Made by a program: the position numbers and the translations under genes
Part shown: positions 5,656 through 62,747 of the stretch, piece by piece
How positions within the stretch are numbered: position 1 is the first letter of the stretch
Layout of the letters: each line of letters opens with the position of its first letter
Notes under the pieces: model-generated
What the model was told of the DNA's origin: nothing
Seen by the model: only the letters and a program-made list of their open reading frames with translations
The model's database searches: none
Assembly (NCBI RefSeq): GCF_009914755.1
Contig: NC_060931.1
From: the human T2T-CHM13v2.0 reference genome, Homo sapiens
Direction: 5' to 3' (one strand)
DNA length: 64,000 bases

Positions 5656-46450
<40,795 letters not shown>

Positions 46451-46568: not shown

Positions 46569-47994
46569 CGTGGCTGCTGGCCAGAGGACGTGAGCGTGTG
46601 ACGGGCGCCTTGGCGCCACCTGTTGGGTGCTCACTGCCTCTGCAGGTGCAGAGGGGTCAGCAGCAGGAGAAGCGTGTTGAACACGTGGCTCTCAGACACT
46701 CCTTGTTTTTAACGGGAAGCTCTTTGCATTTGCATTTCCTCAACAAAGGAGCAAAGCAGAGGAAGCTGAGAGTCTGGCGTGTTCTTGACGCTTTGGTCTT
46801 CAGCCTTGCACTGGCTCTTCTAAAGGACTTTTGGAGGGCAGATAATTTCATCTGTTAAATCCAACACACATTTCTTTCAGGGAAAAACAATGTCACCAAA
46901 TTTTCAGAGTTCTAAACTCCTTTCCTTCAAGCCGGAATTTTCCTTTTTTCAGCACCAGTAGGTACTAAGTCTCCAGATGGGGAAATAACTAAAATGTGTT
47001 TTTCTGCTTTGTTCGCTCTTACTTCTGAGGAAGGTTTCCAGTCAGGACTCGCTGTACCAATATCCATGGAGGAATATGGGAGCGTTTCGCTCTCCTTGTA
47101 GGCTGAAGTCAGTCTGACTTGAAGGGGCCTGGTTTGGATCTAAGCAAACACCCAGATGGGGTTCTCTGGTCTCAGCAAGGCTTTTCCTGTTGGGAGTCAC
47201 AGTAAACAGAAACCCAAAAATCTCATCTTGGGTGTTTTCAGGGCTTGTTTTGAGTTTTGCTGAATAGGGAGCGCAAGACGCCCTGAGCCTCCCTCTCACT
47301 GGTGGTGATAAGAGGAGCCGTCTGGTGTGTCAGGGTCACGAACCCGTTACATTTCAGGACGATCCTTTTTCCTTCAGCAGCATTTCTTACTGGCTGTGGC
47401 TGGAATCTGCCTTTTATCACAGCTGTCACCATTCTCACGTGATTCTTGTGAGACTCTTTTTGGTTATAATTACTATTTAATATTTAGACTATTTTACTGA
47501 GCAGACTTTATAAATGAGATATCTACAAGGCACTTAAAGTGTTACAGATGTTTTACCTTAAGAATTATTTAAGTTGTGTTGGGTTAAGACAGTTTTCAGT
47601 GTACCGTAAATGTTGTGTTTTCAGAAAAAGACAAAACGATGGTGCTGACTGGTTTTCTGTATATTGCACAACAGTCCTCAAATACACTGATGTATGAAAC
47701 TATTCATACATCAAGCAGCATTTTTTTCACTCTCCTTAGAATTGGAACTATGCAGTTAAGGCAGATAAAATGTACAGATGTTTCATATATTACAGGTTAC
47801 ATATATAAATCAAAATTTCCTATATAAAACTGATTTGGGATTTGGGGTGGAAATATTTTGAATATTAATTTATTTTTAAAGATGCAAGATAGGACTTTGT
47901 GCAATGTATTTTTGTAAATGCTTTTCAAAATATCTGTCTTTGGTAGTGCTTCTGCTGCTGCCACCAAATTGATAAGATGCTATTAAGAGGTTTA

Positions 47995-48000
47995 AATAAA
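47995..48000 (+). terminator. Distal SUN1 poly(A) signal AATAAA
   Basis: Canonical hexamer at the end of the AU-rich UTR, with T/GT-rich sequence downstream (~48040-48066). Confidence 0.75.
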
Positions 48001-48862
48001 GAGTTTTAATTTTTAAAAGGGCATGGGATATAAACAGTCTATTTCTTTTCTCAGTTTGTCTGTTTCTGCCCCTGGGATGTGGGAGGGACTGGGTTTGCTG
48101 GTTCTTGTTGGCAAGCTCTGTAGCACAGCCTTTGAATGGTAACCTGTCCTCCAAGGCCTTGAGGCCTCAAGTGTGCCAGGCACCTCTTTCTGTAGGGCAC
48201 CATTTCCACTTGGAAAACGGACTGAATTACAAGTTGCTTGATGGGCAGAACATTAGGAAAACTGATGCCTTTCCTCAGGACACAGTTTTCATCGCTGCTT
48301 CTGTAGCTGAAGGCAGGTGCTGGCACCAGGTCACAGACGATAGCACACACACCACACTATTTTGCACCTGGCTTTTCCCCAGTTACCAAGTGTGTCCCGT
48401 AAGAACCTTTTTTTTTTTAACAGCTGTTTTTGTCCATTGTATGCACGGCTGGATCATGTTGATTCAAGCAGGGCCCAGCTTAAAGGCCTTTGTTTCTTCT
48501 TTTTTATTATAAACAATGCTAACCTGTGAGAGTGGGCTGACCCTGTAAATCCAACGGAGGAGTCTTCGGACCGAACCGCGAACCGCCTTCAAACCCCAAT
48601 TCTTACAGCCAAGCCGTTCCCAACCCTGCACGGCTAGGGCTGGGCCTCAGGCCCCGTTTCTAACTCTGACTGGGGTTTGGACCCCGTTTCCGCAGCCTGA
48701 CAGGGCTGGAAGCTCTAGGCCGACCCAGTTCCCCCTTCCAGCAGGACCCGATCCTGGAGGAGTGAGCCGTCCACCCAGGCACAGCCGCAGGTCCCCAGCC
48801 ACGGCCAGGGAAGGACCGCAGGTGGCCTTTCAAAGAGGAGGAACGCCCCTCAGCGATCCTAA

Positions 48863-49166
<304 letters not shown>

Positions 49167-49370
49167 TATAAAAGTATTTTTAATTTATAAGCATTTTACA
49201 CATTGAACTGTATAGCTCAATGGCTGCTGTTACACCGCGCGCGTGGGGAGGGTCCCACCCCGGGACGCTTCCTGCTCGGGGTCAGCCGCCGCCGCAGCCT
49301 GTTTACGCGCAGCGCCCCGCCAGGCAGTTTCGTGCCACCCGCCATTGTGGCGCGAGCCAGTCCCGGCCCC

Positions 49371-49620
49371 GGGTCACGTGCCGCTCCCGGGCCCGCCCTG
49401 GGCCACGTGTTGCCTGCGGACCCGCCTCTGGGCCACGTGTTGCCTGCGGACCCGCCTCTGGGTCACGTGTTGCCTGCGGACCCGCCTCTGGGTCACGTGT
49501 TGCCTGCGGGCCCGCCCCTGGGTCACGTGTTGCCTGCGGACTCGCCCCTGGGTCACGTGTTGCCTGCGGACCCGCCCCTGGGTCACGTGTTGCCTGCGGA
49601 CCCGCCCCAGGTCACGTGCA
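49371..49620 (+). repeat. 30-bp promoter tandem repeat (GGGTCACGTGTTGCCTGCGGACCCGCC[C/T]CT), about 8.3 units, 9 CACGTG
   Basis: CACGTG at 49375, 49404, 49434, 49464, 49494, 49524, 49554, 49584, 49613. Confidence 0.95.
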
Positions 49621-49764
49621 GCCAGCCGGCGCGCCCGCCCCCGACTGCGCGCGACTCCTCGCGGGCCACCGTAGAAGGGCGTCGGGCGGCCGTCGGGACG
49701 GAAGCCGGGAGGCGCTGCCGACCGCGCCTGCGACAGCGTCAGCCCTGCGCGGAGCGCCGGCCCG

Positions 49765-49919
49765 ATGGCGGCGGCGGCGGCGATGGCCGAGCAGGAGAGC
49801 GCCCGGAACGGCGGCCGCAACCGCGGCGGCGTCCAGCGTGTGGAGGGCAAGCTGCGCGCCAGCGTCGAGAAGGGCGACTACTACGAGGCGCACCAGATGT
49901 ACCGGACCCTGTTCTTCAG
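49765..49919 (+). CDS. GET4: GET4 (TRC35/C7orf20; BAG6 complex, tail-anchored protein targeting) coding exon 1, [17 protein letters not shown]...[14 protein letters not shown]
   Basis: Conserved Get4 motif [12 protein letters not shown]; CAG|gtaccc donor; 155 nt. Confidence 0.96.
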
Positions 49920-50109
49920 GTACCCGCGCCCGGCCCTCGCCGCAGCCCAGCGCCCGCCCCCGCCGCCTCCCATTGGCCGCGCCGCCTCGCCCCGCGCCCC
50001 CATTGGGCCGCGCCGGTGCCCGTCGCGGGGGCGAGCTGGACCCAGGGGCCGCGGGTCGCCCGGCGGAGGGTCTGGGCCGCGTCTCCGGGGTCTGGCCCTG
50101 TGTGGCCCG

Positions 50110-51100
50110 GCGCCCCCGTTCCCTCGGCCTCTGACTCCCGCCTCGGCTTCCTTCCCCTCCCCTGCGTTCCTCCTCGGCCTTCCCCTACTCCCAGCCTCCA
50201 CCTGTTCCCTCCTCCGTCCCCACACGCCCCTCGGCCTTCCTCTGTCTCCTCGGCCGCCTCCCGCCTCGTCCTTCGGTCTCTGTCTCTCTCCGGCCGCCTC
50301 CCCCGCCCCACCTTGGTCTCGCTCTCTCTCTCTCTCTCTGGCCTTCTCCTTCTTCCTTTGCGTCTCTCTCCCCGGCCTCTCCCGGCCCCTCGTCTCTCTG
50401 TCCTCGGCCTCTCCTTGCCCCCCGCCTCGCTCTCCCTGGCCTCCCCCTGCCCCTCGTCTCTCTCTCGCCGTCCTCCCCCTGCCCCTCGTCTCTTTCTTCC
50501 AGCCTCCCCCTGCTCCCTCCGTCTCTCTCTCCCCGGCCTCCCCCTGCCCTCACTCCCGTCTCTCTACCCTGCCTCCCTCTGCCCCCCGCCTCTCTCCCTG
50601 TCCTCCCTCTGCCCACCCCCCGTCTCTCTCTCTTCCTGCTGCCCCCAACCCCGGCTCTCTCCCCAGCCTACCACTGTCCTCGTCCCTTTCGGCTTCCCTC
50701 TCCTAGCCTCCACCTCCCCTGGACCTCCCCCACCTCTCCCGTAGTCTCCCCAACTCCGCTTCCTTCCGCCGGGCCTTCACCTGCTCCCCACCCCATATCT
50801 CCCTGTCCCAGATCTCCCTGCCCGGCCTCCCCCTCCCTGTTCTCCGGCTCCACCGCCCCTCCCCCACCTCCCTCCACCTCTCCCTTGGCCCCCACCTGTT
50901 CCCCTCCCCGTGGCCTTCCCAGATCTTCACCTTCCCCCCCGGCCCCCCGCCTTTCTCTCTCAGGCCTCCCTGCCCGGCCTCCCCCTCCCCTTCCTCTGTC
51001 TCCACCCCTCCGGGCCTGCCCCTTGCCTCCCCTACCTTCCCCCCTGGCCTCCACCTGTTCCGCATTCCCCCACCTCCCTGCCTCCCTCCTCCTGGCCTTC
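50110..51100 (+). repeat. About 1 kb C/T-rich low-complexity (polypyrimidine) tract in GET4 intron 1
   Basis: Almost purine-free + strand with (CT)n and C runs. Confidence 0.9.
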
Positions 51101-60635: not shown

Positions 60636-62747
60636 GTAGGCCTGGGGCCAGGGCAGGCGTGGGCACCTCTCTGCTCTCGGCGTTGATTTGCACTGTGCGT
60701 TCCAATACATCAGGGTCACCCACCAGGGCAGAGATGGGGTTTCACCCTGTGGTCACGCGGGCCGGTCCATGGAGACCCATGCGCCATGCTAAGCCCGGGA
60801 TCAGAGCCACTGCACCCGAGAAGCTGCGAGAAGGGGGGCAGGCGGCCGCCTCTCCAGGCCTTCCCGTGGGACGTTCTGACCCTCAGGGAGGCAGCCGTGC
60901 CTTCACGGGGCCTATGCGTGCTGCTGCTCCTTTCTGGAACATTCTTTCCAGCGCTGGGATGGTGCTGTGCCCTGTTTTTCTCCTTTACGCTGACCTCATC
61001 TTCTGATGAAGCCTTTGCGGGGATTAATCACCCTGTGGTGGGGTCTGGCTGTCTGCGTGGTGTGGTTGGTGTTTTTAGTTCCAGGTCTGCAGCTCTGAGG
61101 CGGGAGTGGTGCTGGGTAGATATTCATTGAGTGACTTGAACGAGGTGCTAATGGGGGTTTAGAAGCGTCCTCCCCAGGGCATTCCCTGGGATGGCAAGTG
61201 GCACCAGCGCTGTGAGATGGTTTCCTTCCTGCCGTCAGGCATCAGGAGGCCTGCTCGGGTCTGCATGTGCCTGGGCTTGGCAGGTGGGGAGGCGGCACCC
61301 AGGGCAGCCCCCGCATTGGAAGCTCTAGGAACTTGGATCTAGGCTGAAGGCCTTTGCTCTAGAGTTCCGGATTGCTGAGCTTGGAACAGCTCCTCCTAGA
61401 CACAGTGTGGCGCGGGAGCAGCTGCATGAGGGCCCACGTACTCTGCACACATCAGCAGCCCATCCGACCTTGTCCCTGGTCATGCGAAACGCATGCCCAT
61501 CCGACCTCCGACCTTGTTCCTGGTCATGCAGGTTCCGCCTGGGCTGTGACAGGAGGCTCGGCGCCCTCAGGCACCTGGCAGGCTTTCCCGACCTTCTCCC
61601 TGAGCGACAGGAATGGGAAGTGAGCAAATCCAAGTAGAATTAGGAGGCTCTCCTCAGAGGAGCCTGGCGGAACCCGGTCCTGGCTGTGTGCCGAGTGGCG
61701 GGGCACCCACAGGGAGATGAGCCAGTGCCTATCTCTTGCCTCAGTCTCCCCGTGGTCGCCTCCTTCCTCAGAAGGGGCTGGCCCAGGCTGGTGCCTCCGT
61801 GGCCCCTGGAGCATACCTGCTGCCGCCTTCCCTGGCCTCTGGCGACAGCAGGCCTCCCGTACTCCACCTGTCCCCCAGCCAGCATGGCTCCACACAGAAC
61901 ACGGCCGCAGACAACCCTCCTGTGTCCTGCATAGCGAACTGCCACTCTGCGTGGGCCCCACTGCCAGGTTAGGGAGGCAGGAGCTGCCCCCACCCCCTGC
62001 CCGGGAGCTGTCGTCTGTCTTTCGGATGAGTCAGGAACAAATGCGTCAACACTGGGTGGCCGCCCTCGCCACTCCTGCGCACGGGCCCTGTGGGGAGAGC
62101 CAGGCAGTGGGTGGCGTGGGACAGGTGATGCCCATGCCCAGTACTCAGGAGACCTGCATGGCAGCTCCTAAGATGGGTACAAGCGATCATAAGGAGGGAT
62201 GTACGTGTCTCATCTCCCCACCCACCACGGGATCAGGTTGAGGCCGTCCAGGGAGTGCATGGGAGGGCTGCGCTCGGCGCATCTGCAGAGATCCCCTGAA
62301 GAGGGGCCCTGGCTGCCTCCCACTGGGGTAGGTGCGGGCCCAGGTCCCCGACACCGTGATGGTGCTGTGGGACTTTGATGGACCTCACCCGGGGAGCCCA
62401 GGCCTGCTCCACGGCAAGGTGGCCACGCACTGCCTCTGCAGTCCTGAGCACAGGCTCCATACGGGACCTGAGGCCTGGGCTCCATGACACTTGGGCTATG
62501 TGCTTCCCTGGTGCTTCCCTCCTGGGGATGAAATCACACCCATAGGTAAAGGTTTGGGAGTGGAGGGAGACAGCAGGAGACAAAGCAAGGGGACGAGGAC
62601 TCTGGCAGCCACAAAGGCAGCGGGAGGGCCCTGGAGGCTCCTGTTGGGCAGCGCAGTCAGGAAAGGGCCCACTAGGTGGGAGAGGCAGGCGCCTGGTGAG
62701 TGCTGAGATCTGCACCACGAGAAGGGCTGGGCTCCCAAGGCATGCAT

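What the first reader, a model, noticed from the sequence alone, without database searches (positions are those of the whole stretch)
49371..49620. GET4 core promoter is a 30-bp VNTR carrying 9 regularly spaced E-boxes, interleaved with GC boxes
Seen: a 30-bp tandem array ends about 145 bp upstream of the GET4 ATG. Each unit carries GG[T/C]CACGTG (7 of 9 are GTCACGTG) and most carry CCCGCC[C/T]C. Established: GTCACGTG is the preferred site of USF1/2 and MiT/TFE factors (TFEB CLEAR core), CCACGTG suits MYC/MAX, binding is blocked by CpG methylation, and CCCGCCCC binds SP/KLF. Inference: copy number could act as a heritable dial for GET4 (ER tail-anchored targeting and BAG6 quality control), possibly linking it to TFEB/USF signalling. 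Lying about 1.4 kb past the SUN1 poly(A) site, the array could also shield the promoter from SUN1 read-through.
Basis: partly seen in the sequence, partly recalled or inferred. Interest (0 to 1): 0.8.

Follow-up and report, generated by a model that had tools for sequence, protein, structure and literature searches.

The report
Nine-E-box minisatellite in GET4 promoter
A 30-base repeat just upstream of the human GET4 gene lines up nine copies of one transcription-factor docking site and tops published binding maps for factors that use that site, but whether people differ in repeat number, or whether that changes GET4 output, is still untested.

Summary
Tandem Repeats Finder gives a 30-bp array of 8.6 copies at 49362-49618. 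It holds nine CACGTG E-boxes spaced 29/30 bp apart (7 GTCACGTG, 2 GCCACGTG). It lies -311 to -55 from the annotated GET4 start site, inside the CpG island. The unit occurs nowhere else in this genome.

Occupancy has published support. In a re-analysis of ENCODE anti-RAD51 ChIP-seq, whose peaks are dominated by the USF motif and overlap USF1/USF2 peaks, the GET4 peak sits on the array. It is the first table row in GM12878, K562 and MCF-7 and the second in HepG2. TFE3-fusion Cut&Tag also lists the promoter.

I read it as a repeat-born cluster of E-boxes and GC boxes, loaded mainly by USF, that forms the proximal promoter.

The "heritable dial" idea is untested. No second human haplotype or primate genome was available. 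GET4 is absent from the supplements of three VNTR-eQTL studies. The read-through shield idea has no support.

No paper found names the array. The closest precedent is the TRIB3 promoter VNTR. It is a new member of a known kind, of moderate interest.

The parts
49362..49618 (.). 30-bp minisatellite, 8.6 copies, consensus CCCGCCCCTGGGTCACGTGTTGCCTGCGGA. GC 0.75, 28 CpG.
   Evidence: Tandem Repeats Finder; composition; unit found nowhere else in the genome.
49371..49399 (+). Degenerate 5' edge unit (unit 1), with its E-box at 49375-49380 (GTCACGTG). It matches interior units at 20-23 of 29 positions.
49400..49608 (+). Seven near-identical interior units (2-8), matching each other at 27-30 of 30 positions. 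E-boxes at 49404, 49434 (both GCCACGTG) and 49464, 49494, 49524, 49554, 49584 (all GTCACGTG). Variant positions 4 and 28 form a 5'-to-3' gradient.
49609..49638 (+). Degenerate 3' edge unit (unit 9). Its E-box is at 49613-49618, centred about 57 bp upstream of the start site. A GC box CCCGCCCC follows from 49634.
49673..49919 (+). GET4 exon 1 (annotated start site 49673, ATG 49765). No TATA box upstream.
   Evidence: Hub annotation; sequence; motif scan.
49200..50399 (.). CpG island that holds the array, the start site and exon 1. In 200-bp bins GC is 0.68-0.80 and CpG observed/expected is 0.76-1.16.
49972..50006 (-). Two inverted CCAAT boxes (ATTGG at 49972 and 50002), 30 bp apart, just downstream of exon 1. 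They are probable NF-Y sites of the same promoter region (motif recalled).

Best explanation
A minisatellite has amplified one promoter module nine-fold and now makes up the proximal promoter of GET4 (-311 to -55) inside its CpG island. The module is a class-B E-box plus a GC-rich SP/KLF-type box.

Each E-box can take one bHLH-leucine-zipper dimer. The 30-bp period leaves room for all nine to be filled at once, with SP/KLF factors in between.

The most likely resident factors are the ubiquitous USF1/USF2. MiT/TFE factors (TFE3, TFEB, MITF) and MAX-network dimers can probably use the same sites when they are nuclear and abundant.

The loaded array would keep the CpG island open and support constitutive, TATA-less initiation about 57 bp downstream of the last E-box.

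Shown here: the anatomy, the uniqueness of the unit, and very high E-box-type ChIP signal exactly over the array.
Inferred: that the bound factor is USF, that binding activates GET4, and that all nine sites contribute.
For: Anatomy: nine CACGTG spaced 29/30 bp apart, 7 of 9 with the GTCACGTG flank. The left nine bases of those sites (GGTCACGTG) equal one half of the adenovirus major-late USF site GGCCACGTGACC, as quoted in PMC10570711 (passages).

Occupancy, from PMC8196894 (passages; Table S3):
- The GET4 peak is data row 1 in GM12878 (RPKM 516; sheet seen sorted by falling RPKM), K562 (1025) and MCF-7 (916).
- It is data row 2 in HepG2 (299).
- The four lines have 5137, 7192, 3498 and 2611 peaks respectively.
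- Peak centres lie -143 to -183 from the start site; the array centre is at -183.
- 73.5% of the GM12878 peaks carry the USF2 motif.
- 52%, 69% and 31% of peaks overlap USF2 peaks in GM12878, HepG2 and K562.
- Other top rows are APEX1, CLN3, HEXA-AS1, ATP6V1G1 and CDK4.

Second example: a three-E-box cluster upstream of Tudor-knot exons (probably KAT5) matches row 6 of the GM12878 table.

TFE3: fusion Cut&Tag lists the GET4 promoter among the roughly 12,534 M/E-box sites shared by four tRCC lines (PMC12081665).

Retention of the E-box: the two old, degenerate edge units keep the E-box decamer at 19 of 20 positions, against 24 of 39 for the rest of the unit (Fisher p = 0.006).

CpG retention: all three CpGs per interior unit are intact and the region is a CpG island.
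Against: - The ChIP antibody was anti-RAD51, not anti-USF. I saw no USF1/2, MAX, TFEB or MITF track at GET4 itself.
- The TFE3-fusion list is broad (about 3,900 promoters), and those fusions bind active promoters promiscuously.
- The hub annotation lists a RefSeq 'silencer' at 49254-50143 that covers the array. At least one assay therefore did not score it as an activator.
- GET4 is absent from the supplements of the USF2/TFEB competition paper.
- A tandem array inflates ChIP signal simply by holding many sites within one fragment length.
- The edge-unit statistic was computed in a register anchored on the E-box.
- I found no reporter, deletion or knock-down data for this promoter.
Confidence: 0.65

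Rival explanations
1. The array is polymorphic in unit number, and GET4 expression (and its response to USF or TFEB) scales with the number of E-box units, as shown for the TRIB3 promoter VNTR.
For: - Interior units match each other at 27-30 of 30 positions, and units 2 and 3 are identical. The variant map is polar. This is the pattern of a recently turning-over minisatellite.
- There is a precedent: TRIB3 33-bp repeat number correlates with expression (PMC7425993, abstract).
- Across loci, E-box clusters sit at the top of the ChIP table: GET4 with 9 sites is row 1 and a 3-site cluster is row 6.
Against: - No second haplotype could be examined.
- GET4 is absent from the supplements of Bakhtiari 2021 (10 files, 1 unreadable), Lu 2023 (5 files, 1 unsearched and 1 cut; gene name and Ensembl id both absent) and the 8,222-genome VNTR study (4 files).
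- ChIP peak centres on hg38 fit an array about as long as the one in this assembly. This is weak evidence.
- Nine sites may already saturate the promoter.
- Larger E-box minisatellites (16 and 86 units) are not among the 20 GM12878 rows I saw. Site number alone therefore does not set occupancy.
Confidence: 0.25
2. A bound but dispensable by-product. A neutral minisatellite happened to amplify an E-box inside a CpG island. Factors load on it, but GET4 transcription is set by the unique GC-rich core and the downstream CCAAT boxes.
For: - E-box-bearing minisatellites are common. There are 1,754 CACGTG triplets genome-wide, against 2,708 for the reversed-word control.
- A RefSeq 'silencer' feature covers the array (hub annotation).
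- A GC box at 49634, an ETS-like site at 49699 and two CCAAT boxes lie outside the array.
- No eVNTR signal was found.
Against: - The last E-box sits about 57 bp upstream of the start site, a position typical of USF upstream elements (recalled).
- The degenerate edge units preferentially retain the E-box.
- ChIP signal is the highest or second highest in four cell lines.
Confidence: 0.2
3. A barrier or shield. The USF-loaded array insulates the GET4 promoter from SUN1 read-through transcription and from silencing that spreads from the adjacent antisense Alu, in the manner of the USF-dependent chicken beta-globin HS4 barrier (recalled).
For: - The array starts 1.3 kb downstream of the SUN1 3' end on the same strand.
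- An antisense Alu ends about 200 bp upstream of it.
- USF tetramers can bridge two E-boxes (PMC10570711).
Against: - There are no transcription or chromatin data.
- No MAZ-type or Sp1 nine-base pause motifs occur in 47900-49700.
- Any active CpG-island promoter would have the same effect.
Confidence: 0.1
4. The ChIP signal reflects genuine RAD51 loading at a recombination-prone or replication-stressed repeat, and not E-box factors.
For: - The antibody target was RAD51.
- The single strand folds somewhat better than shuffled versions (z = -2.27).
Against: - Genome-wide, the same peaks are defined by the CACGTG motif and by overlap with USF peaks, not by repeats.
- Most of the other top rows are ordinary promoters; one of the 20 rows seen is a simple repeat.
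- There is no PRDM9-type 13-mer in the array and no short-loop G-quadruplex motif.
Confidence: 0.05

Closest known systems
TRIB3 promoter 33-bp VNTR (PMC7425993; abstract read)
   Same: A roughly 30-bp tandem repeat in a human proximal promoter, where each unit carries one defined transcription-factor response element.
   Different: - TRIB3 has 1-5 copies of a C/EBP-ATF element. Its polymorphism, reporter dose-response and eQTL effect have all been demonstrated.
- GET4 has nine E-box units in this assembly, and none of those three properties has been shown.
Adenovirus major-late upstream element and USF-driven cellular promoters (motif GGCCACGTGACC quoted in PMC10570711)
   Same: The GGTCACGTG half-site is identical. 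The last GET4 E-box lies about 57 bp upstream of the start site, close to the recalled position of the major-late element.
   Different: The major-late promoter has one site and a TATA box. GET4 has nine sites and no TATA box, in a CpG island with interleaved GC boxes.
CLEAR-network and USF-target promoters with clustered E-boxes (the co-listed top peaks CLN3, ATP6V1G1 and HEXA-AS1; 3-4-site clusters)
   Same: Several GTCACGTG sites lie close to a start site, and they appear together at the top of the same ChIP table.
   Different: - Those clusters are non-repetitive and hold 3-4 sites.
- GET4's cluster is a minisatellite with nine sites.
- None of its sites is the full recalled palindromic decamer GTCACGTGAC.
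- GET4 is not a lysosomal gene.
Other E-box-bearing human minisatellites: chr2 at 3.628 Mb (30 bp x 16.2) and chr5 at 1.196-1.200 Mb (42 bp x 85.6), in this assembly's coordinates
   Same: Tandem arrays in which every unit carries (G)TCACGTG. The chr2 unit also pairs the E-box with a G-rich box at a 30-bp period.
   Different: - They show no sequence homology to the GET4 unit.
- They are absent from the 20 GM12878 rows I saw.
- I did not establish their position relative to genes. The chr5 array may be the recalled TERT intron-2 minisatellite, but this is unverified.
MAOA promoter 30-bp uVNTR (recalled; no call)
   Same: A 30-bp promoter repeat proposed to tune transcription by copy number.
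   Different: MAOA's repeat has no E-box, and its polymorphism is well documented.

Membership tests
Minisatellite (tandem repeat with 10-100-bp units) | Head-to-tail copies of a unit of 10 bp or more | tested here: met
   Period 30, 8.6 copies, 91% matches. Interior units match at 27-30 of 30 positions.
VNTR in the strict sense | Copy number differs between haplotypes | not testable with these tools
   Only one human assembly is held. GET4 is absent from the supplements of three VNTR studies. The Garg et al. paper is not held.
Expression-associated VNTR (eVNTR) | Copy number is associated with expression of a nearby gene | tested here: inconclusive
   There are no GET4 rows in the eVNTR or eMotif tables of Lu 2023, by gene name or Ensembl id. 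The same holds for Bakhtiari 2021 and PMC11701250. Some files were unsearched or cut, and the locus may not have been genotyped at all.
Class-B E-box element for USF / MiT-TFE / MAX-type bHLH-zipper factors | CACGTG core | tested here: met
   9 of 9 units.
Class-B E-box element for USF / MiT-TFE / MAX-type bHLH-zipper factors | Flanking T (TCACGTG), favoured by USF and MiT/TFE (preference recalled) | tested here: met
   7 of 9 units on one side only. Units 2 and 3 read GCCACGTG.
Class-B E-box element for USF / MiT-TFE / MAX-type bHLH-zipper factors | Occupied in cells | tested here: inconclusive
   Literature only. The array is the top or second row of a USF-motif-dominated anti-RAD51 ChIP-seq in four lines, and it is in the TFE3-fusion Cut&Tag list. 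I saw no direct USF, MAX or TFEB track at GET4.
CLEAR element (TFEB) | Palindromic decamer GTCACGTGAC (recalled consensus) | tested here: not met
   0 of 9. The sites read GTCACGTGTT (5), GCCACGTGTT (2), GTCACGTGCC (1) and GTCACGTGCA (1).
SP/KLF GC box | GGGCGG / CCGCCC core | tested here: met
   CCGCCC is present in 5 of 9 units (1, 5, 7, 8, 9). Units 2-4 have CCGCCT and unit 6 has TCGCCC.
CpG-island promoter | GC above 0.5 and CpG observed/expected above 0.6 around a start site | tested here: met
   Over 49200-50399, GC is 0.68-0.80 and observed/expected is 0.76-1.16. The start site is taken from the hub annotation.

The most novel reading that the evidence does not exclude
The GET4 array is the strongest natural docking site for USF/MiT-TFE-type factors in the human genome. 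It is also a copy-number-variable, possibly primate- or human-specific, built-in multi-E-box reporter. Its unit number would set factor occupancy and GET4 (TRC35) dosage. That would tie capacity for tail-anchored protein targeting and BAG6 quality control to USF/TFE activity and to inherited repeat length.
Probability: 0.2. Interest if true: 0.65.

Novelty: new member of a known kind. Interest (0 to 1): 0.45.

Why it matters
GET4 (TRC35) is a core part of the BAG6 complex, which routes tail-anchored proteins and triages mislocalised ones. Little is written about how its transcription is controlled.

A promoter made of nine amplified E-boxes is a simple, testable model of how a tandem repeat creates a cluster of identical binding sites. 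It could also show how site number relates to factor occupancy.

It has a practical side. A locus that tops E-box-type ChIP tables can serve as a positive control. It can also flag antibodies whose signal follows USF sites, as the anti-RAD51 data may.

If repeat length varies and matters, it would be a hidden cis-regulatory variant at 7p22.3 that SNP-based studies cannot see.

Tried and rejected
- Literature. The library holds no paper with 'GET4 promoter'. No relevant paper pairs GET4 with VNTR, with tandem repeat, or with eQTL and SUN1. C7orf20 had no co-mention with TFEB, USF1, MITF, E-box or minisatellite. Minisatellite + USF + CACGTG gave one irrelevant paper. PMC8196894 never uses the words tandem, repeat or copies. 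PMC4510968 concerns a GET4 gene-body enhancer, not the promoter.
- Supplements without GET4: PMC8024321, PMC10234305 (the coordinate-prefix search returned only decimal fragments), PMC11701250 and PMC11436898.
- The AJHG version of Garg et al. is not held. Supplements of its preprint are closed.
- Homology of the unit elsewhere in the genome: none.
- RNA gene in 48000-51000: no Rfam match.
- PRDM9-type 13-mer in the array: none.
- G-quadruplex: no short-loop motif, only long-loop candidates on the minus strand.
- Single-strand structure: modest (z = -2.27).
- MAZ or Sp1 nine-base pause motifs between SUN1 and the array: none.
- Primate or mouse comparison: no such genomes are available.

Full report
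**1. The observation**

The sequence at 49362-49618 is a clean 30-bp tandem array. Tandem Repeats Finder gives 8.6 copies, 91% matches and score 388 (sequence read).

CACGTG starts at 49375, 49404, 49434, 49464, 49494, 49524, 49554, 49584 and 49613. The spacing is 29, then 30 six times, then 29. Seven of the nine sites read GTCACGTG. Units 2 and 3 read GCCACGTG.

CCCGCC[C/T]C occurs six times in the array and once in the degenerate last unit. The stricter GC-box core CCGCCC is present in only 5 of 9 units.

The window holds 29 CACGTG against 8.8 +/- 3.0 in shuffles. The nine array sites are one amplified sequence, not nine independent events.

Against the hub annotation, the array spans -311 to -55 from the GET4 start site (49673). 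It ends 147 bp before the ATG and begins 1,309 bp after the SUN1 3' end. It is therefore the proximal promoter rather than the core promoter.

**2. Anatomy and setting**

The array lies in a CpG island covering about 49200-50399. In 200-bp bins GC is 0.68-0.80 and CpG observed/expected is 0.76-1.16. The array itself has GC 0.75 and 28 CpGs.

Interior units 2-8 match each other at 27-30 of 30 positions, and units 2 and 3 are identical. The two edge units match the interior units at only 19-23 of 30.

Variable positions 4 (C,C,T,T,T,T,T) and 28 (T,T,T,C,C,C,C) form a 5'-to-3' gradient. This is the pattern of old edges around a young, still-homogenising core.

In the two degenerate edge units the E-box decamer is kept at 19 of 20 positions. 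The rest of the unit is kept at 24 of 39 (Fisher p = 0.006). The caveat is that the register was anchored on the E-box.

Other features:
- There is no TATA box.
- A GC box follows the array at 49634, and two inverted CCAAT boxes sit 30 bp apart just past exon 1.
- An antisense Alu ends about 200 bp upstream of the array.
- At 10.5 bp per turn, successive E-boxes rotate by about 309 degrees, so they are not on one face of the helix.
- The single strand folds only modestly better than shuffles (z = -2.27).
- There is no short-loop G-quadruplex motif, no PRDM9-type 13-mer in the array and no Rfam match in 48000-51000.

**3. Elsewhere in the genome**

The unit is unique to this locus. BLAST of 180 bases found only the array. 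A 20-base pattern with up to two mismatches found the seven interior units plus 15 unrelated single sites, four of which contain CACGTG.

E-box-bearing repeats as such are not rare:
- There are 1,754 CACGTG triplets within the set spacing, against 2,708 for the reversed-word control.
- With the GTCACGTG flank there are 36 forward and 83 reverse triplets, in roughly twenty loci among the 100 listed rows; 19 more rows were not shown.
- These include larger minisatellites at chr2:3.628 Mb (30 bp x 16.2) and chr5:1.196-1.200 Mb (42 bp x 85.6).
- They also include non-repetitive clusters of 3-4 sites.

So nine E-boxes in a row is unusual but not unique. What stands out is the position in an active CpG-island promoter.

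**4. Occupancy in cells (literature)**

PMC8196894 re-analysed ENCODE anti-RAD51 ChIP-seq. I read passages and Table S3.
- The peaks are dominated by the USF motif. 73.5% of GM12878 peaks carry the USF2 motif.
- 52%, 69% and 31% of peaks overlap USF2 peaks in GM12878, HepG2 and K562.
- The authors show GET4 and CLN3 as example promoters.
- In Table S3 the GM12878 sheet is sorted by falling RPKM, as seen in its first 20 rows.
- The GET4 peak (hg38 chr7:876244-876513, RPKM 516) is the first of 5,137 peaks there.
- It is also the first data row in K562 (RPKM 1025; 7,192 peaks) and MCF-7 (916; 3,498 peaks), and the second in HepG2 (299; 2,611 peaks). I assume those sheets are sorted the same way.
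- Peak centres are -176, -183, -175 and -143 from the start site. The array centre is at -183.

Neighbouring top rows include APEX1, CLN3, HEXA-AS1, ATP6V1G1 and CDK4. Row 6 is labelled KAT5. It matches a cluster of three GTCACGTG within 58 bp that lies upstream of Tudor-knot exons in this assembly. That identification rests on coordinates being close and on the domain hit.

The paper never mentions a repeat.

Separately, the Fig. 3E source data of PMC12081665 list the GET4 promoter among M/E-box sites bound by TFE3 fusions in all four tRCC lines. That list holds about 12,534 sites, and the fusions bind active promoters promiscuously. Seven of that paper's supplementary files were not searched.

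**5. Best explanation**

The array is a repeat-born cluster of identical sites that forms the proximal GET4 promoter.
- The 30-bp period lets all nine E-boxes hold a bHLH-zipper dimer at once, with SP/KLF factors between them.
- USF1/USF2 are the likeliest residents. The left half of the sites (GGTCACGTG) equals one half of the adenovirus major-late USF site quoted in PMC10570711.
- The ChIP profile that ranks GET4 first tracks USF sites.
- USF tetramers can bridge two E-boxes, which could stabilise binding across the array. This is inference.
- MiT/TFE and MAX-network factors can probably use the same sites.

None of the nine sites is the full recalled CLEAR decamer. GET4 does not appear in the supplements of the USF2/TFEB paper. 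A specific TFEB link is therefore unproven.

Evidence against the reading:
- The antibody was anti-RAD51.
- I saw no direct USF track at GET4.
- A RefSeq 'silencer' feature at 49254-50143 covers the array (hub annotation).
- Many sites within one fragment length inflate ChIP signal.

The 16-unit and 86-unit E-box minisatellites are not among the 20 GM12878 rows I saw. Site number alone therefore does not set rank, and chromatin state, probably CpG methylation, matters. This is inference.

**6. The 'heritable dial' and the 'shield'**

Polymorphism could not be tested. Only one human assembly and no primate genome are held.

GET4 is absent from the supplements of:
- Bakhtiari 2021 (10 files searched, 1 unreadable);
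- Lu 2023 (gene name, Ensembl id; one file unsearched and one cut);
- the 8,222-genome VNTR study.

Garg et al. is not held. These absences are weak evidence, because the locus may never have been genotyped. At 257 bp it exceeds short reads.

The young, homogeneous core suggests turnover. The hg38 peak centres suggest a similar array length in that reference. That too is weak evidence.

The read-through shield idea has no support beyond geometry. No MAZ or Sp1 nine-base motifs lie between SUN1 and the array.

**7. Comparison with what is known, and verdict**

The closest characterised precedent is the TRIB3 promoter 33-bp VNTR (PMC7425993, abstract). There, polymorphism, reporter dose-response and eQTL effects have all been shown. 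GET4 shares the architecture but none of that evidence.

No paper in the library names this array.

I rate it a new member of a known kind, namely a promoter minisatellite that multiplies a transcription-factor site. Interest is moderate. The anatomy and the top ChIP rank are striking. The regulatory and population-genetic claims remain open and are cheap to test.

Noticed in passing
window 49964-50014: A 16-bp-period repeat (3.2 copies) just after GET4 exon 1 carries two inverted CCAAT boxes (ATTGG at 49972 and 50002). They are exactly 30 bp apart, the same period as the upstream array.
   Followed up: partly
window 50240-50676: GET4 intron 1 holds C/T-rich minisatellites: 32 bp x 7.8, 40 bp x 2.3 and 65 bp x 2.3, plus a (TC)n run. 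They partly overlap the RefSeq 'silencer' at 50194-50331.
   Followed up: no
window 39643-39799: Five hits to a PRDM9-type 13-mer (four read CCACCATCTCCCC, the first CCCCCGTCTCCCC) fall at exact 36-bp spacing inside a SUN1 intron. This looks like another minisatellite.
   Followed up: no
window about 48865-49166: An antisense Alu abuts the 5' edge of the GET4 CpG island, followed by an A/T-rich stretch that contains TATAAAAG.
   Followed up: no
window about 60777: The single-base RefSeq cis-regulatory feature at 60777 probably corresponds to rs79351189 (hg19 7:927298, nearest start site GET4, NRF1 motif). That variant is among the top up-regulating Neanderthal-introgressed variants in a K562 MPRA (PMC8760939, Table 1). 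The position match is my own arithmetic and was not verified.
   Followed up: partly
L015 1525-2022 (G000:C2:3628024-3628521): A 30-bp x 16.2 minisatellite in which each unit pairs (A/G)GTCACGTG with a G-rich box. It has the same architecture and period as the GET4 array but no sequence homology to it. Its gene context was not determined.
   Followed up: partly
L016 1499-5093 (G000:C5:1195998-1199592): A 42-bp x 85.6 minisatellite in which every unit carries CACGTGAC. It may be the TERT intron-2 minisatellite with MYC sites that I recall, but this is unverified.
   Followed up: partly
L012 827-882 (G000:C11:65706126-65706181): Three GTCACGTG lie within 58 bp upstream of exons that encode a Tudor-knot domain (probably KAT5). 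This matches row 6 of the GM12878 ChIP table. L013 (chr16 at 2.542 Mb) and L014 (chr1 at 154.22 Mb) hold similar 4-site clusters of unknown gene context.
   Followed up: partly
PMC8196894 Table S3 (not a window feature): The top rows of the ENCODE anti-RAD51 ChIP-seq read like a USF/MiT-TFE target list (GET4, APEX1, CLN3, HEXA-AS1, ATP6V1G1, CDK4). This raises the possibility that the antibody signal reports USF-type complexes rather than RAD51.
   Followed up: no
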